Source of the DNA: Bacteroidota bacterium
Lineage (GTDB): Bacteria; Bacteroidota; Bacteroidia; AKYH767-A; OLB10
Direction: 5' to 3'
Assembly: GCA_046052065.1 (NCBI GenBank)
Contig: JBJOND010000003.1
Location: 663-64,662 of the forward strand
DNA length: 64,000 nucleotides
Part shown: positions 1 to 3,304 of the stretch, piece by piece
How positions within the stretch are numbered: the stretch's first letter is position 1
How the letters are laid out: each line of letters opens with the position of its first letter
The notes under the pieces: generated by a model
Seen by the model: the letters and a program-made list of their open reading frames with translations, nothing else
Told to the model about the DNA's origin: nothing
Databases searched by the model: none
Made by a program: the position numbers and the translations under genes

Positions 1-119
1 GGAACAGGGAAGTTAAGCAAAACGCTCGCGTCAAGGCGTGGGCGTTGCTTTACTTTGTTCCGTGGTTCTTGGTCGAACCTTCAAGGCAAGTAATAGCAAC
101 TAACCCACGCTATTTTTTT
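1..119 (+). ncRNA. Unassigned GC-rich structured element: two long imperfect hairpins followed by a T7 run. It is probably the 3' end of an RNA or 3'UTR that begins left of the window.
   Basis: nt 1-61 fold back on themselves. ggaaca 1-6 pairs with tgttcc 56-61, agttaagcaa..cgc 11-25 pairs with gcgttgctt.act 42-54, and the apex is cgcg-tcaagg-cgtg. cgtgg 61-65 pairs with ccacg 105-109 and is followed by T7 at 113-119. The motif tcaagg occurs in both hairpins. GC is visibly higher than in the AT-rich flank. Confidence 0.3.
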
Positions 120-162
120 GACTGATTCTATCCATTTAGTTAGTTTATTTATTGGTGAAGAC

Positions 163-237
163 CAGAACTCACTTTAAAAAACGGCCATGCTCAAATTGGA
201 AATTTGAGGGCGCATACCGAAAAGCCTAATGAGTAGG
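163..237 (+). promoter_or_regulatory. Conserved 75-nt leader element, copy A, with a perfect palindrome ctcaaatt-gga-aatttgag at 190-208
   Basis: About 92% identical to copies at 983-1057 and 1807-1881 by my own alignment. The palindrome is invariant in all three. The element ends 17 nt before the ATG at 254. Confidence 0.6.
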
Positions 238-253
238 GAAAGGGAATTTAAAA

Positions 254-727
254 ATGGAAAACGTACTTTCTCAAATTAATGTAGATCAATTGTCGATTAA
301 ATTAACAGATGAAAAATTGTATATTAATACAGCTACATCAAACGAAACCTTTGCTTTACGATCAATTAATGGTATTGGTGTGATTGATTTGGTTGATGAG
401 TATAATGCAGCTCTAACGGAGTTTAAGAAAAAAAGAAATGGGCCTTTAGTATTATTGGTTGTGGGAATTATATTTACAATTGAAGGATATTGGCTTAATG
501 TTTTTGGTTTGACTGTGGCAGGGCTTTTAATGACTTTAATAGGTTTTTTTGCATATCAAGGTTTCAATTCGAAAAAGCCTACATTAATGTCTGCCGTACG
601 TGTTATGATGAGCGGAGGAAATCGCGATTTTAAATTCGATAAAGCGAATGTTACAAGTGGATACATTGCAGATTTTGTAGCAAAAGTAGAGTCGACATTG
701 TCAGCATACCATAAAAAGAATGTATAA
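254..727 (+). CDS. Hypothetical membrane protein: conserved soluble N- and C-terminal segments flanking a hydrophobic two-helix hairpin (paralog 1)
   Basis: 157-aa ORF. Compared with 1075-1548, the first 51 codons show 1 non-synonymous and 6 synonymous changes, and the last roughly 50 codons show 6 non-synonymous and 16 synonymous changes. The central part (PLVLLVVGIIFTIEGYWL / VFGLTVAGLLMTLIGFFAY) is hydrophobic and diverged. I do not recognise a family. Confidence 0.75.
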   Translation: MENVLSQINVDQLSIKLTDEKLYINTATSNETFALRSINGIGVIDLVDEYNAALTEFKKKRNGPLVLLVVGIIFTIEGYWLNVFGLTVAGLLMTLIGFFAYQGFNSKKPTLMSAVRVMMSGGNRDFKFDKANVTSGYIADFVAKVESTLSAYHKKNV

Positions 728-930
728 TTGGTTTTTGGGATACTTTTTGGAAGGTATTGCAAGTTAGAACATCGGTTCAAATACAGGAGAATTTAGAAAG
801 TACTAATAGTAGAAACCGACGACAACGTGAATTGAATTCTAATTTAGAAGAAATTCATTATGAATTAGAAAAGAAGCGTGAATCCTGGGACTATCAAAAA
901 AAGGCCTCTCGAAAAAAAAACAATAAGTGA
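727..930 (+). CDS. Small charged coiled-coil protein (paralog 1) with ATT in place of the ATG start. It could be a functional non-canonical start or a decaying copy.
   Basis: This open frame of 67 codons is not in the ORF track. It translates to (I/M)GFWDTFWKVLQVRTSVQIQENLEST..KKRESWDYQKKASRKKNNK, roughly 85% identical to the product of 1551-1754. ATT 727-729 overlaps the upstream TAA stop. Confidence 0.4.
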   Translation: MGFWDTFWKVLQVRTSVQIQENLESTNSRNRRQRELNSNLEEIHYELEKKRESWDYQKKASRKKNNK

Positions 931-982
931 TATTCTGCAAAATAGCTTGCCACTTAAATAAGAAATATTAAACTATGGAGTT

Positions 983-1057
983 CAGAACCCATATTAAAAA
1001 ACGGCCATTCTCAAATTGGAAATTTGAGGGCGCATAACGAAAAGCCTCATGAGTAGG
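983..1057 (+). promoter_or_regulatory. Conserved 75-nt leader element, copy B (palindrome 1010-1028)
   Basis: Same element as 163-237. It ends 17 nt before the ATG at 1075. Confidence 0.6.
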
Positions 1058-1074
1058 AAAATGAAATTTAAAAA

Positions 1075-1548
1075 ATGGAAAACATACTTTCTCAAATCAA
1101 TGTAGATCAATTGTCAATTAAATTAACAGATGAAAAATTGTATATTAATACTGCTACATCAAACGAAACCTTTGCTTTACGATCGATAAATGGAATTGGT
1201 GTGATTGATTTGGTTGATGAGTATAATACATTATTATCTGATTGGAAGAAAAAAAATAAAAAAACATTATCTCCAATTGCAGTGGGCATTCTGTTTTTAT
1301 TTACAGGTTATAGTGATAACAATATCAAGTTAGGTTTATTAGGTTTACTAGCCATTATTGGCGGGGCTATATGGTATAATAAAATGCTTTCAGAAAAGCC
1401 ATCTATGATGTCAGCAGTTCGAATTATGATGAGTGGTGGAAACCGTGATTTTAAATTTGATAAGGCGAATGTTTCAAGTGGATCTATTGCAGATTTTGTT
1501 GCTAAAGTGGAGTCGACATTATCAGCGTACCATAAAAAGAATGGGTAA
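1075..1548 (+). CDS. Hypothetical membrane protein with a hydrophobic hairpin (paralog 2)
   Basis: 157-aa ORF, paralog of 254-727. The hairpin is LSPIAVGILFLFTGY / LGLLGLLAIIGGAIWY. The excess of synonymous differences argues for real coding sequence under purifying selection. Confidence 0.75.
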   Translation: MENILSQINVDQLSIKLTDEKLYINTATSNETFALRSINGIGVIDLVDEYNTLLSDWKKKNKKTLSPIAVGILFLFTGYSDNNIKLGLLGLLAIIGGAIWYNKMLSEKPSMMSAVRIMMSGGNRDFKFDKANVSSGSIADFVAKVESTLSAYHKKNG

Positions 1549-1550
1549 TA

Positions 1551-1754
1551 ATGGGATTTTGGGATACGTTTTGGAAGGTATGGCAAGTTAGAACATCGGT
1601 TCGAATTCAGGAGGATTTGGAAAGCACTATTAGTAGAAATAGACTACAGCGAGAGCTGAATTCAAATTTAGAAGAAATTCATGATGAATTAGAAAAGAAG
1701 CGTGAATCTTGGGACGATCAAATAGAGGCCTCTCGAAGAAAAAACAATAAGTAA
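1551..1754 (+). CDS. Small charged coiled-coil protein (paralog 2)
   Basis: 67-aa ORF whose ATG lies 2 nt after the upstream stop (taataATG). It has a W-rich N-terminus (MGFWDTFWKVW) followed by a highly charged helical-looking sequence. The gene is conserved in the first unit. Confidence 0.6.
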   Translation: MGFWDTFWKVWQVRTSVRIQEDLESTISRNRLQRELNSNLEEIHDELEKKRESWDDQIEASRRKNNK

Positions 1755-1806
1755 TATGCTGGAAATTGTTTTGTTATTTAGTTTGTAAATAGTCAACTAT
1801 GGAGTT

Positions 1807-1881
1807 CAGAACCCATATTAAAAAACGGCCATGCTCAAATTGGAAATTTGAGGGCGGATACTGAAAAGCCTTAAGAGTAGG
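1807..1881 (+). promoter_or_regulatory. Conserved 75-nt leader element, copy C (palindrome 1834-1852), upstream of the lipoprotein/SIR2-like pair
   Basis: About 92% identical to copy B. It ends 18 nt before the ATG at 1900. Confidence 0.6.
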
Positions 1882-2350: not shown

Positions 2351-3304
2351 ATGGATTTTGAAAATTATTTTAATCAAGAATTATTAAAGGGTAAAATTGA
2401 TAAGAAATTTGTTTTAATTATCGGTTCTGGAATCCATAAACAAGCATTCAGAGAGAAAAAGAATATATTGTCGGATTGGGAGACATTGCTAAAAAGTGTA
2501 AGCAAAAATGTTTCCCTATCCAATAATTACATTTTAGATTTTGAATCAATTGTCGTTGCTGAAACAAGAAAGCAAAAGTCGGATTCTGCTAGTAAAATTG
2601 AACTTGTAAAACTGAAATCCTTATCAAGTAATATAATTAATTTTAAAGTCAATAAATATAAATTAAATTATCCTCTTAGGATTTTTAATTCGAATTGCAT
2701 TAGTGATGTAATAAATCTAAATTTTGATATCGTTGTTGAAAAAATTTTATCTAATTATAAAATTAATAGAGGTCGTTATTCAGATCATAATTTGGACGAA
2801 ACTGGAACAAAAAAATCGCCCATTTTAAATTCGATGTATTATGAAATTAATGGTATTAAATTTTGGCATCCTCATGGGTCAGTTTTAAAACCGGATTCTA
2901 TTCTTTTAGGATTAAGAAAATATTCAAAGAGTGCAAAGGAAGTTGAGCAATTAAGAATACGGTATAAAAGCAAAACAGATGGAGGCGAAAAATTTACTGT
3001 TGACGGTTTTAATTGGTTTGACGCACTTGTTCAAAGACCCATTATTATATGTGGTACATCTTTGAGTGATTCGGAATGGGACATTTGGTTAGCCATCGTA
3101 AATCGTTTTAGAAATTATGCAAAACATCCCCAAAAAGAACAGCCAATTTTTATAATGACTGGTGGAAAAAGTCTAAAAAGGAATTGTTTAAATAACTTTA
3201 TTAAAGCTTTTAGACCTGTATCATCCAATGCATGTTCTTATAACGAAGAATGGTTGTTGTTGGAAAAATTATTGGGAGATTGTCAAAATAAAAACTTGAC
3301 ATGA
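2351..3304 (+). CDS. Stand-alone SIR2_2-like (defence-type sirtuin/NADase-like) protein
   Basis: Motifs appear in the SIR2_2 order: FVLIIGSGIH..SDWETLL (GxG plus W..LL), NLNFDIVVEK (N.D), FWHPHGSV..PDSILLGLRKY (HG), and PIIICGTSLSDSEWDIW (G.S..D). It lacks the CobB-type Zn-Cys motifs. The track starts at TTG 2324, but ATG 2351 is more likely. Confidence 0.6.
   Translation: MDFENYFNQELLKGKIDKKFVLIIGSGIHKQAFREKKNILSDWETLLKSVSKNVSLSNNYILDFESIVVAETRKQKSDSASKIELVKLKSLSSNIINFKVNKYKLNYPLRIFNSNCISDVINLNFDIVVEKILSNYKINRGRYSDHNLDETGTKKSPILNSMYYEINGIKFWHPHGSVLKPDSILLGLRKYSKSAKEVEQLRIRYKSKTDGGEKFTVDGFNWFDALVQRPIIICGTSLSDSEWDIWLAIVNRFRNYAKHPQKEQPIFIMTGGKSLKRNCLNNFIKAFRPVSSNACSYNEEWLLLEKLLGDCQNKNLT

What the first reader, a model, noticed from the sequence alone, without database searches (positions are those of the whole stretch)
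163..1881. A 75-nt leader with an invariant 8-3-8 palindrome occurs three times and precedes unrelated genes
Copies at 163-237, 983-1057 and 1807-1881 are about 92% identical pairwise (6 differences in 75 nt by my alignment). The palindrome ctcaaatt-gga-aatttgag is identical in all three.

Each copy ends 17-18 nt before a start codon. The third copy precedes a lipoprotein gene that has no similarity to the 157-aa genes.

The element is therefore conserved independently of the coding duplication. That argues for function as a dimeric-regulator operator, a promoter (GAAATTTG is one mismatch from the TAnnTTTG -7 box), or a 5'UTR hairpin.

No regulator gene is visible in the window.
Basis: seen in the sequence. 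Interest (0 to 1): 0.65.

Follow-up and report, generated by a model that had tools for sequence, protein, structure and literature searches.

The report
Bacteroidota DUF805-type leader RNA, pseudoknot variant
The thrice-repeated 75-nt "leader" is a structured 5'-untranslated RNA of a family already catalogued in Bacteroidota (Rfam DUF805 RNA), whose function is unknown, and its palindrome is one stem of an optional pseudoknot domain, not a protein operator or a promoter.

Summary
There are three copies, 6/7/6 differences in 75 nt, with an identical 19-nt palindrome, ending 16-18 nt before an ATG. The third gene is unrelated to the first two.

The element is about 9 nt longer at its 5' end (154-237, 974-1057, 1798-1881). 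It is a member of the Rfam clan CL00115 (DUF805 / DUF805b RNA), an orphan cis-regulatory leader found across Bacteroidota. All defining blocks are present:
- the P1 hairpin with loop AGnYCAGAAC
- AAAAAACGG
- the P2 hairpin GGC..(C/A)(C/U)GAAAA..GCC
- GAGUAGG

It scores below Rfam's thresholds only because 24 nt are inserted between ACGG and GGCG.

That insert is not peculiar to this locus. More than 85 distinct versions in metagenomes share an H-type pseudoknot (stem A CCUG/CAGG type, stem B CCCGn/nCGGG type) with covariation.

Across the family the leader sits 16-25 nt upstream of more than 100 unrelated small genes, of which only about 4% encode DUF805. It often occurs in clusters.

A related genome shows one compensatory change and one mismatch in the palindrome. 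The operator and promoter readings are not supported; the "5'UTR hairpin" reading is roughly right. The mechanism is unknown. Most likely it acts after transcription, on translation or stability, through an unidentified ligand or factor.

The parts
154..237 (+). Leader copy 1, a DUF805-type RNA with a pseudoknot insert. P1 154-158/169-173 with loop 159-168 AGACCAGAAC. Linker plus CGG 174-184. Insert 185-208: stem A 185-187 CCA / 197-199 UGG; stem B 190-195 CUCAAA / 203-208 UUUGAG, extendable to the 8-bp palindrome 190-197/201-208. P2 209-211 GGC / 224-226 GCC with loop GCAUACCGAAAA. Tail 227-237 UAAUGAGUAGG.
   Evidence: DUF805b 33.3 bits, E 5e-7; custom model 57.4 bits
238..253 (+). A-rich, poorly conserved spacer between GAGUAGG and the start codon of gene A1
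   Evidence: 67-77 % identical between copies
254..727 (+). Gene A1: 157-aa protein with two predicted membrane helices. Uncharacterised family with no Pfam match and 209 homologues.
727..930 (+). Small ORF B1 (57 aa from TTG 757). The homologous ATG of B2 is ATT here (727-729). Paralogue of B2.
974..1057 (+). Leader copy 2. P1 974-978 UAUGG / 989-993 CCAUA, with changes on both sides at P1 pairs 1, 2 and 5 relative to copy 1. CGG 1002-1004. Insert 1005-1028: stem A 1005-1007/1017-1019, stem B 1010-1015/1023-1028. P2 1029-1031/1044-1046. GAGUAGG 1051-1057.
   Evidence: DUF805 RF03081 40.1 bits, E 3e-5; 58.1 bits
1075..1548 (+). Gene A2, paralogue of A1 (157 aa)
1551..1754 (+). Small ORF B2 (67 aa), starting 3 nt after the A2 stop codon. 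The A+B pair is conserved in homologous loci.
1798..1881 (+). Leader copy 3. P1 1798-1802/1813-1817. CGG 1826-1828. Insert 1829-1852: stem A 1829-1831/1841-1843, stem B 1834-1839/1847-1852. P2 1853-1855/1868-1870. GAGUAGG 1875-1881.
   Evidence: DUF805b 31.9 bits, E 1.5e-6; 54.6 bits
1900..2307 (+). 135-aa lipoprotein-like gene, unrelated to A, served by leader copy 3

Best explanation
Each copy is the structured 5' leader of an mRNA and belongs to the DUF805/DUF805b RNA family (Rfam clan CL00115) of Bacteroidota.

Shown:
- The anatomy is a P1 hairpin with a conserved loop, an A-run plus CGG, a facultative H-type pseudoknot insert, a P2 hairpin with a CCGAAAA loop, an invariant GAGUAGG, about 20 nt of A-rich spacer, and then the ATG.
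- The palindrome is stem B of the insert. In this lineage it is lengthened by two A-U pairs that overlap stem A (CCA/UGG).
- The same module precedes many unrelated small genes across the phylum, with or without the insert.
- In a relative it is co-transcribed with its ORF.

Inferred: the leader acts in cis and after transcription on the ORF directly downstream, most probably on translation initiation and possibly on mRNA stability. Three points suggest this. There is no terminator between motif and ATG. The motif ends at a fixed distance from the start codon, about where a ribosome's footprint begins. Bacteroidia ribosomes ignore Shine-Dalgarno sequences and depend on unstructured A-rich leaders.

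The roughly 35 near-invariant unpaired nucleotides and the heterogeneous gene set suggest that the leader binds one common trans-acting partner. That could be a global RNA-binding factor, the ribosome itself, or a general signal molecule, rather than a gene-specific metabolite. The partner is unknown.
For: Family membership:
- Rfam in E-value mode hits DUF805 and DUF805b on all three copies.
Nearly all of the 120 stretches are Bacteroidota.
- Canonical instances score 55-88 bits on RF03081, against a gathering score of 51.1.

RNA structure:
- P1 covaries. Pair 13-30 reads GC78/AU16/UA5/CG4, and 0 of 500 shuffles reach the observed score. Copy 1 differs from copies 2 and 3 on both sides of P1 pairs 1 (G-U to U-A), 2 (G-C to A-U) and 5 (A-U to G-C), and each stays paired.
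- The insert forms a pseudoknot. Across 85 distinct inserts, native stem B averages 5.74 bp against 4.19 +/- 0.10 after partner swapping (maximum 4.44 in 300 swaps). Stem A averages 4.34 bp against 3.98 +/- 0.09 (maximum 4.25).
- On an unfitted MAFFT alignment 72.4 % of cells pair against 64.3 % shuffled, the covariation score is 0.325 against 0.223 (0/500), and the structure beats every slid register.
- In the related genome L360, pair 7 of the palindrome changes from U-A to A-U, and CCA/UGG is kept in all orthologues.

Position and gene set:
- The distance from GAGUAGG to the ATG is 16-25 nt for most of 121 cases, median 20, and similar in the insert class.
- Downstream Pfam families: AHSA1 12, OMP beta-barrel 6, DUF805 5, SCO4226-like 5, TM2 5, and others, among 118 proteins. 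The insert class gives PixA 6, SnoaL_2 5, MIP 3, DUF805 1.
- Several leaders often cluster within one locus.
- No position-specific conservation and no fixed promoter box lie upstream of P1 in 178 loci.

Transcription: metatranscriptome contigs of a rhodopsin gene carry the leader's 3' module and end about where P1 begins.

Constraint inside the window: the motif is 87-93 % identical between copies, against 63-77 % in the flanks.

Background on Bacteroidia translation: PMC6847099 and PMC7797042 (abstracts).
Against: - No experiment and no 5'-end mapping exists for this locus, and no RNA run holds it.
- The three copies fall below Rfam's gathering scores (40.1 against 51.1; 33.3 and 31.9 against 35.6).
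- Single-sequence folding is no better than shuffles (z -0.07 to -1.27).
- P2 (GGC/GCC) is almost invariant in my samples because my patterns fixed it. A few instances break it without compensation, for example GGAG in L073, L198 and L224. P2 therefore rests mainly on Rfam's model and on single compensated cases such as AGC/GCU in L133.
- In the window stem A is only 3 bp and competes with the 8-bp hairpin form.
- The metatranscriptome evidence comes from assembled contigs of relatives. These can contain DNA and give no true 5' ends.
- Nothing identifies the ligand or factor. Translation control versus stability or processing is not resolved.
Confidence: 0.72

Rival explanations
1. RNA processing or stability element. 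The leader is recognised by an RNase, or protects the 5' end, and so sets mRNA half-life or cuts clustered genes into separate messages. It would not gate ribosome access.
For: Several leaders occur between closely spaced genes with no predicted terminators, both in the window and in other loci. An RNA contig ends about where P1 begins. The downstream genes look like abundant small proteins, such as rhodopsin, HU, porins and PixA.
Against: A simple 5' stabiliser needs a hairpin, not about 35 invariant unpaired nucleotides. The tight spacing to the ATG is not required for stability. No cleavage data exist.
Confidence: 0.15
2. Operator: the 8-3-8 palindrome is the DNA binding site of a dimeric transcription factor that co-regulates the three genes.
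For: It is a perfect palindrome, identical in three copies and located upstream of genes. A symmetric change (U-A to A-U) would also preserve a DNA palindrome.
Against: The palindrome lies in an insert that most family members lack. Homologous inserts have at least 61 different stem sequences but keep pairing and the pseudoknot partner. One orthologous copy has a mismatch in one arm only. The element is strand-specific and at a fixed distance from the ATG. More distant homologues of the gene that do have an adjacent HTH regulator lack the leader entirely.
Confidence: 0.03
3. Promoter: GAAATTTG inside the palindrome is a Bacteroidota -7 box, and transcription starts within the element.
For: It is one mismatch from TAnnTTTG (read directly from the sequence). 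Transcripts starting there would resemble the 3'-module-only DUF805b class.
Against: The mismatch is at the conserved T, and no -33 TTTG lies at a suitable distance. Sequences like the -7 box are not enriched in 85 homologous inserts. A start there would exclude P1, which covaries and is conserved. The generic promoter scan found nothing specific.
Confidence: 0.04
4. No function of its own: the similarity is just a by-product of a recent tandem duplication or gene conversion.
For: The copies lie in a 2.1-unit tandem array. Identity of 92 % is close to that of the best-conserved coding stretch (90 %).
Against: The motif is better conserved than the flanking spacer, the intergenic DNA and third codon positions. 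The same blocks are near-invariant in hundreds of unrelated loci across a phylum.
Confidence: 0.01
5. Mobile or recombination DNA element (MITE, or an integron attC-like site) that travels with gene cassettes.
For: Arrays of small unrelated genes are each preceded by the same element. The A-B cassette occurs in different contexts.
Against: There are no terminal inverted repeats and no long-range R''/L''-L'/R' type pairing. The element is always co-oriented with the downstream ORF and 16-25 nt from it. It is also present as a single copy before ordinary chromosomal genes such as aqpZ.
Confidence: 0.02

Closest known systems
DUF805 RNA motif (Rfam RF03081) and DUF805b RNA (RF02914), clan CL00115. 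These are candidate cis-regulatory RNAs of Bacteroidota from the 2017 survey of 224 candidate structured RNAs (PMC5737381). Their attribution to that paper is from my own knowledge: the main text does not name them and no supplement was held.
   Same: All sequence blocks and both modelled hairpins are present in order. The element has the same orientation and the same position just upstream of an ORF, in the same phylum. Canonical relatives found with a pattern taken from the window score 55-88 bits on RF03081.
   Different: The window copies carry a 24-nt insert between ACGG and GGCG. Rfam's model does not contain it, so they score below the gathering thresholds. The downstream genes are not DUF805, but neither are about 96 % of the family's in my sample. 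The insert is a covarying H-type pseudoknot for which no Rfam family exists.
Small H-type pseudoknot aptamers (preQ1-I, SAM-II, fluoride and guanidine-III riboswitches), compared from my own knowledge of those classes
   Same: Size and topology are alike: short stems, a strand of the second stem lying in the loop of the first, an A/U-rich third loop, and many invariant unpaired nucleotides. The element sits in the 5' UTR close to the start codon, sometimes in several copies per genome.
   Different: No sequence or covariance-model match to any of them. The downstream genes do not point to a metabolite. The pseudoknot is dispensable, since most members lack it. No ligand is known.
Leaders of global post-transcriptional regulons, such as CsrA/RsmA target leaders with GGA motifs (own knowledge)
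   Same: One short conserved leader precedes many functionally unrelated genes. Purine-rich GGA-containing boxes (GUGGAG, GUAGGA) lie in or near loops and close to the ribosome-binding region.
   Different: Far more nucleotides are conserved than in CsrA sites. As far as I know, Bacteroidota have no CsrA, Hfq or ProQ. No binding protein has been identified.
5' stabiliser leaders (E. coli ompA 5' UTR, B. thuringiensis cryIIIA STAB-SD), from own knowledge
   Same: A 5'-proximal structure lies upstream of abundant envelope or stationary-phase proteins.
   Different: Those elements are gene-specific and are not conserved across a phylum. There are no half-life data here.

Membership tests
Rfam DUF805 RNA (RF03081) / clan CL00115 | 5' hairpin P1 (4-5 bp) with conserved loop AGnCCAGAAA | tested here: met
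   GGUGA-AGACCAGAAC-UCACU in copy 1 and UAUGG-AGUUCAGAAC-CCAUA in copies 2 and 3. Between copy 1 and copies 2/3, P1 pairs 1, 2 and 5 change on both sides and remain paired. Family-wide covariation is shown.
Rfam DUF805 RNA (RF03081) / clan CL00115 | A-rich linker ending in ACGG | tested here: met
   UUAAAAAACGG in all three copies
Rfam DUF805 RNA (RF03081) / clan CL00115 | Second hairpin GGC...GCC with loop ..CCGAAAA | tested here: met
   GGC-GCAUACCGAAAA-GCC in copy 1..AACGAAAA.. in copy 2 and ..ACUGAAAA.. in copy 3. CUG and UCG variants are common in the family.
Rfam DUF805 RNA (RF03081) / clan CL00115 | 3' tail nnAnGAGUAGG, then about 20 nt to the start codon of a co-oriented ORF | tested here: met
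   GAGUAGG at 231-237, 1051-1057 and 1875-1881, with 16-18 nt to the ATG. The family median is 20 nt.
Rfam DUF805 RNA (RF03081) / clan CL00115 | Score at or above Rfam's curated gathering threshold | tested here: not met
   DUF805 40.1 bits against 51.1; DUF805b 33.3 and 31.9 bits against 35.6. The shortfall comes from the 24-nt insert (37 nt aligned against 10 model positions). Other insert-bearing relatives score 51-56 bits or are missed. My own model gives 54.6-58.1 bits, but the copies were among its 126 training sequences.
Rfam DUF805 RNA (RF03081) / clan CL00115 | Downstream gene encodes a DUF805 (PF05656) protein, the origin of the family's name | tested here: not met
   No Pfam DUF805 match in the 157-aa, 67-aa or 135-aa products. 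This feature does not define the family in practice: 5 of 118 and 1 of 78 downstream proteins are DUF805.
Operator of a dimeric transcription factor | Half-site sequence conserved wherever the element occurs, with base identity mattering rather than pairing | tested here: not met
   61 distinct stem-B sequences with pairing kept. A related genome shows a compensatory flip in one copy and a one-arm mismatch in another.
Operator of a dimeric transcription factor | A cognate regulator binds the duplex DNA | not testable with these tools
   Needs EMSA or footprinting. No regulator gene is adjacent.
Bacteroidota sigma-A promoter (-33 TTTG / -7 TAnnTTTG) | A -7 box with a -33 partner at the right spacing, recurring in homologous elements | tested here: not met
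   GAAATTTG lacks the T, and no TTTG lies about 20 nt upstream. There is no enrichment in 85 inserts. No fixed box lies upstream of P1 in 178 loci.
Intrinsic terminator | G+C-rich hairpin followed by a U-run | tested here: not met
   The palindrome is A/U-rich and is followed by GGGCG. The scan reports no terminator at the copies.
Known riboswitch classes with an H-type pseudoknot | Match to the class's covariance model | tested here: not met
   No Rfam hit other than DUF805 and DUF805b on the window or on 20 insert-bearing loci

The most novel reading that the evidence does not exclude
The DUF805-type leader, with or without its pseudoknot domain, may be the common docking site of a still unknown global post-transcriptional regulator. 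That regulator could be an RNA-binding protein, the SD-blind Bacteroidia ribosome itself, or a general signal molecule acting as a riboswitch ligand. The leader would then define a phylum-wide regulon of small envelope and stress proteins, in a phylum that (from my own knowledge) lacks Hfq, CsrA and ProQ. The facultative pseudoknot would tune or add a second input to that switch.
Probability: 0.35. Interest if true: 0.8.

Novelty: new variant of a known kind. Interest (0 to 1): 0.45.

Why it matters
For this window the finding is largely explained.

The wider value lies in what the follow-up showed about the family:
- The leader is far more general than its name suggests, since about 96 % of downstream genes in my sample are not DUF805.
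- It is nearly invariant across Bacteroidota and sits at a fixed distance from start codons, in a phylum whose ribosomes do not use Shine-Dalgarno pairing.
- A few percent of members carry a covarying H-type pseudoknot that Rfam's models do not contain, so those members are under-detected.

Each of these points can be tested with reporters in Flavobacterium or Bacteroides. Such tests could reveal how a large set of small envelope and stress genes is controlled.

Tried and rejected
- RNA evidence for the window itself: no RNA run holds it, only DNA metagenomes.
- Literature: 12 papers mention DUF805 and none concerns the RNA. No paper links GAGUAGG to Bacteroid*. The 2017 survey's main text does not name the motif and no supplement is held. 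The F. psychrophilum transcriptome paper does not mention it.
- Leader-peptide idea. P1 often starts GUG, AUG or UUG, and one frame ends at the UAG in GAGUAGG. I rejected it because the A-run length varies by single nucleotides, so no frame is kept, and because the first P1 base covaries with its partner.
- A core pseudoknot of CGG (in ACGG) pairing with CCG (in CCGAAAA): inconclusive. The CUG and UCG variants and the CAG/CUG pair in L136 fit. CAG/CCG in L209 and UAG/CCU in L187 do not.
- Mutual-information scan for other long-range pairs: nothing beyond P1.
- A fixed promoter upstream of P1: none found (the first attempt had a faulty pattern).
- Defence-system annotation of the A, B, lipoprotein and SIR2_2 genes with PADLOC: no significant hit.
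- Rfam on the structured region at window 1-125 and on its full intergenic context: no hit.
- Single-sequence folding of the copies: not different from shuffles.
Full report
OBSERVATION

The region holds a 2.1-unit tandem array with a period of 820-824 nt. Each unit consists of a leader, a 157-aa gene for a protein with two membrane helices (254-727; 1075-1548) and a small ORF (757-930; 1551-1754). A third leader follows and precedes a 135-aa lipoprotein-like gene (1900-2307).

The 19-nt palindrome is identical in all three and occurs nowhere else in the 64 kb. The ATGs follow after 16, 17 and 18 nt. The lipoprotein is unrelated to the 157-aa proteins.

Three leaders cannot arise from duplicating a single leader-gene unit, so at least two leaders pre-existed. 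The motif is 87-93 % identical between copies. That is higher than the spacer to the ATG (67-77 %), the intergenic DNA just upstream (64 %) and third codon positions of the duplicated gene (63 %). The one correction is that the element begins about 9 nt further 5'.

WHAT IT IS

At its gathering thresholds Rfam reports only a tRNA in the window. In E-value mode all three copies match DUF805 RNA (RF03081; 40.1 bits, E 3e-5) or DUF805b RNA (RF02914; 33.3 and 31.9 bits, E about 1e-6). Both belong to clan CL00115. The alignment shows every block of the model, with 37 nt standing where the model has 10 positions.

I took a 22-base pattern from the window (AAAACGG..GAAAAGCC..GAGTAGG) and scanned one genome per species. 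The canonical form is GUGGAGaCCAGaaACCAC-uuAAAAAACGG-GGCGaaACCGAAAAGCC-auAyGAGUAGG. It scores 55-88 bits on RF03081.

Only about 3-5 % of those hits carry extra sequence between ACGG and GGCG. The window copies are therefore insert-bearing members of a catalogued family.

STRUCTURE

P1 is well supported. On a model-based alignment of 114 instances all five pairs show changes on both sides. Pair 13-30 reads GC78/AU16/UA5/CG4, and 0 of 500 shuffles reach the observed covariation. Inside the window, copy 1 has GGUGA/UCACU where copies 2 and 3 have UAUGG/CCAUA, so pairs 1, 2 and 5 change on both sides and stay paired.

P2 (GGC/GCC) is nearly invariant in my samples, but my search patterns fixed it, so that says little. 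Isolated cases compensate (AGC/GCU in L133) and a few break it.

THE PALINDROME

After removing false cases it gave 85 distinct inserts. They are not arbitrary hairpins. About 90 % share one architecture, in the order stem A 5' strand, stem B 5' strand, stem A 3' strand, an A/U-rich loop, stem B 3' strand. Stem A is of the type (G)CCUG/CAGG(Y) and stem B of the type CCCGnn/nnCGGG. This is an H-type pseudoknot.

Two independent tests support it.
- When the 3' strand of stem B is swapped between sequences, the mean helix drops from 5.74 to 4.19 +/- 0.10 bp (maximum 4.44 in 300 swaps). Swapping the 5' strand of stem A lowers it from 4.34 to 3.98 +/- 0.09 bp (maximum 4.25). There are 57 distinct stem-A and 61 distinct stem-B sequences.
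- On an unfitted MAFFT alignment the pseudoknot gives 72.4 % paired cells against 64.3 % in shuffles. The covariation score is 0.325 against 0.223 (0/500), and it beats every slid register.

The window insert CCAUG-CUCAAAUU-GGA-AAUUUGAG fits this plan. Stem A is CCA (185-187) with UGG (197-199). Stem B is CUCAAA (190-195) with UUUGAG (203-208). The nearest analogues are CCAUCCUCAGUUGGAUAAAUGAGG (L358) and CCUGCCUCAACAGGAGAAAUGAGG (L283).

Insert-bearing members score 51-56 bits on RF03081 or are missed.

RELATED GENOMES

The 157-aa protein has 209 homologues and no Pfam family.
- A near-identical relative (L359) has the same three-leader arrangement.
- A relative with a 78 %-identical protein (L360, L361) has one A-B pair plus the lipoprotein and SIR2_2 genes, with two leaders.
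- In L360 copy 1 the palindrome reads CUCAAAAU-GGA-AUUUUGAG, so pair 7 has flipped from U-A to A-U. L360 copy 2 has an A-A mismatch at that pair. L359 copy 3 changes the loop and the linker. CCA and UGG are kept in all of these copies.
- Homologues at 53-60 % identity (L362-L365) have no leader at all. Three of them have a divergent HTH_3 regulator gene instead.

The leader is thus a portable module, and the palindrome behaves as an RNA helix rather than as a sequence-specific DNA site.

GENE CONTEXT ACROSS THE FAMILY

The ATG lies 16-25 nt after GAGUAGG in most of 121 cases (median 20), and the products are small (median 148 aa).

Pfam families among 118 downstream proteins are AHSA1 12, OMP beta-barrel 6, DUF805 5, SCO4226-like 5, TM2 5, DUF5684 3, TRL 3, MIP 2, and single cases of rhodopsin, HU, NmrA and others. 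The insert class is equally mixed (PixA 6, SnoaL_2 5, MIP 3, DUF805 1, YccF 1) and has the same spacing.

Clusters of two or three leaders before successive small genes are common (L133, L135, L187, L156, L214, L221 and others). The window's layout is therefore typical.

Upstream of P1, 178 loci show no position-specific conservation except an A-rich tract at -1 to -11, and no fixed TAnnTTTG box.

TRANSCRIPTION

No RNA run holds the window. A canonical leader before a rhodopsin gene (L122) is held by 24 freshwater and estuary metatranscriptome runs. Contigs of relatives cover the coding sequence and some run into the leader. One 530-nt contig continues 72 nt upstream, and the 30 letters shown of that stretch read, as RNA..AAAAUCCUUAAGAGUAGGGCUAACUUAAAC. 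It ends about where P1 begins. This shows co-transcription, but assembled contigs do not map true 5' ends.

HOW IT PROBABLY WORKS

Shown: a conserved, strand-specific, transcribed structure abuts the ribosome-binding region of many unrelated ORFs. No terminator lies between motif and ATG.

Inferred: it acts in cis after transcription, most likely on translation initiation. Bacteroidia ribosomes do not use Shine-Dalgarno pairing and depend on unstructured A-rich leaders (PMC6847099 and PMC7797042, abstracts).

The many invariant unpaired nucleotides and the mixed gene set argue for one common partner rather than a gene-specific metabolite. That partner could be a global RNA-binding factor, the ribosome or a general signal. 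A role in stability or processing is the main alternative.

REJECTED READINGS

- Operator: pairing is conserved, not sequence.
- Promoter: the match is imperfect, sequences like the -7 box are not enriched in 85 inserts, and a start there would exclude the covarying P1.
- Terminator: there is no U-run.
- Leader peptide: no reading frame is kept.
- Mobile or attC-like element: there are no inverted termini, and the element is always co-oriented with the ORF and at a fixed distance from it.

VERDICT

This is a real feature that is correctly seen as independent of the gene duplication. It belongs to a known orphan family, and its palindrome is one stem of a facultative pseudoknot domain that current models lack. 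I rate it a new variant of a known kind, of moderate interest.

Noticed in passing
window 1-125 (= L118 9748-9872), intergenic after a UbiE-type methyltransferase gene: This stretch folds strongly on both strands (+ strand -44.1 kcal/mol, z -3.55; - strand z -3.93). It has a long imperfect hairpin, a second hairpin and a T-run at 111-120. No Rfam family matches, even in E-value mode on the full intergenic region. It could be a terminator or REP-like structure, or an uncatalogued small RNA.
   Followed up: partly
window 2351-3304 (+); L359-L362: A 317-aa SIR2_2 / AbiH-like protein follows the lipoprotein gene. In homologous loci the pair of 157-aa and 64-67-aa genes plus a 116-135-aa protein is followed by SIR2_2 or by a NADase_transloc protein. 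This hints at a toxin or defence-type cassette. PADLOC gives no significant match.
   Followed up: partly
window 727-760 versus 1549-1583: The small ORF of unit 1 has lost the ATG that unit 2 has at 1551 (ATT at 727-729). The next start is TTG at 757, yet the GFWDTFWKV peptide frame stays open. The gene is either decaying or uses a non-standard or coupled start.
   Followed up: no
L363-L365 (homologues of the 157-aa gene at 53 % identity): Here the A-B gene pair has no DUF805-type leader. Instead a divergently transcribed HTH_3 (XRE-type) regulator lies next to it, with a HipA toxin module nearby in L364 and L365. The same cassette appears to be under protein control in one lineage and under the RNA leader in another.
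   Followed up: partly
L131, L134, L142, L164, L167, L173, L179, L199, L201, L207 and others: A subclass of the leader has a P1 loop shorter by 2 nt (GUGGAGCAGCAACCAC) and one G fewer (ACGGGCG). It is tied almost exclusively to AHSA1/SRPBCC genes that start MSNSVSLH.
   Followed up: no
IMG/VR contigs L054, L073, L014, L028, L071, L005, L053; L008, L043, L044, L052, L057: Full DUF805-type leaders (65-75 bits) occur on contigs classed as viral. A form with only the 3' module (DUF805b-like, with P2 extended to AUGGC/GCCAU) precedes a conserved protein starting MEEQIKKLKKLADEY on several phage-like contigs.
   Followed up: partly
L133 1893-1972 (-): This divergent leader copy has a second GAGUAGG box in place of AAAAACGG. 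Its P2 reads AGC/GCU, a compensated change of the outer P2 pair.
   Followed up: no
L180, L222, L235 (one MAG, CAXNGM01): A single genome carries leaders both with and without the insert, and its two inserts differ in sequence. The pseudoknot domain is therefore gained, lost or diversified copy by copy.
   Followed up: partly
L118 6777-7166: A Y1_Tnp (IS200/IS605-type) transposase gene lies about 2.7 kb upstream of the first leader.
   Followed up: no
L200 2356-2434 (-): In one unbiased copy the P1 loop start changes from AG to GG (GUGGGG) and the 3' box changes from GAGUAGG to GGGUAGG. The same A-to-G change in both boxes might mean the two are read together. This is a single case.
   Followed up: no
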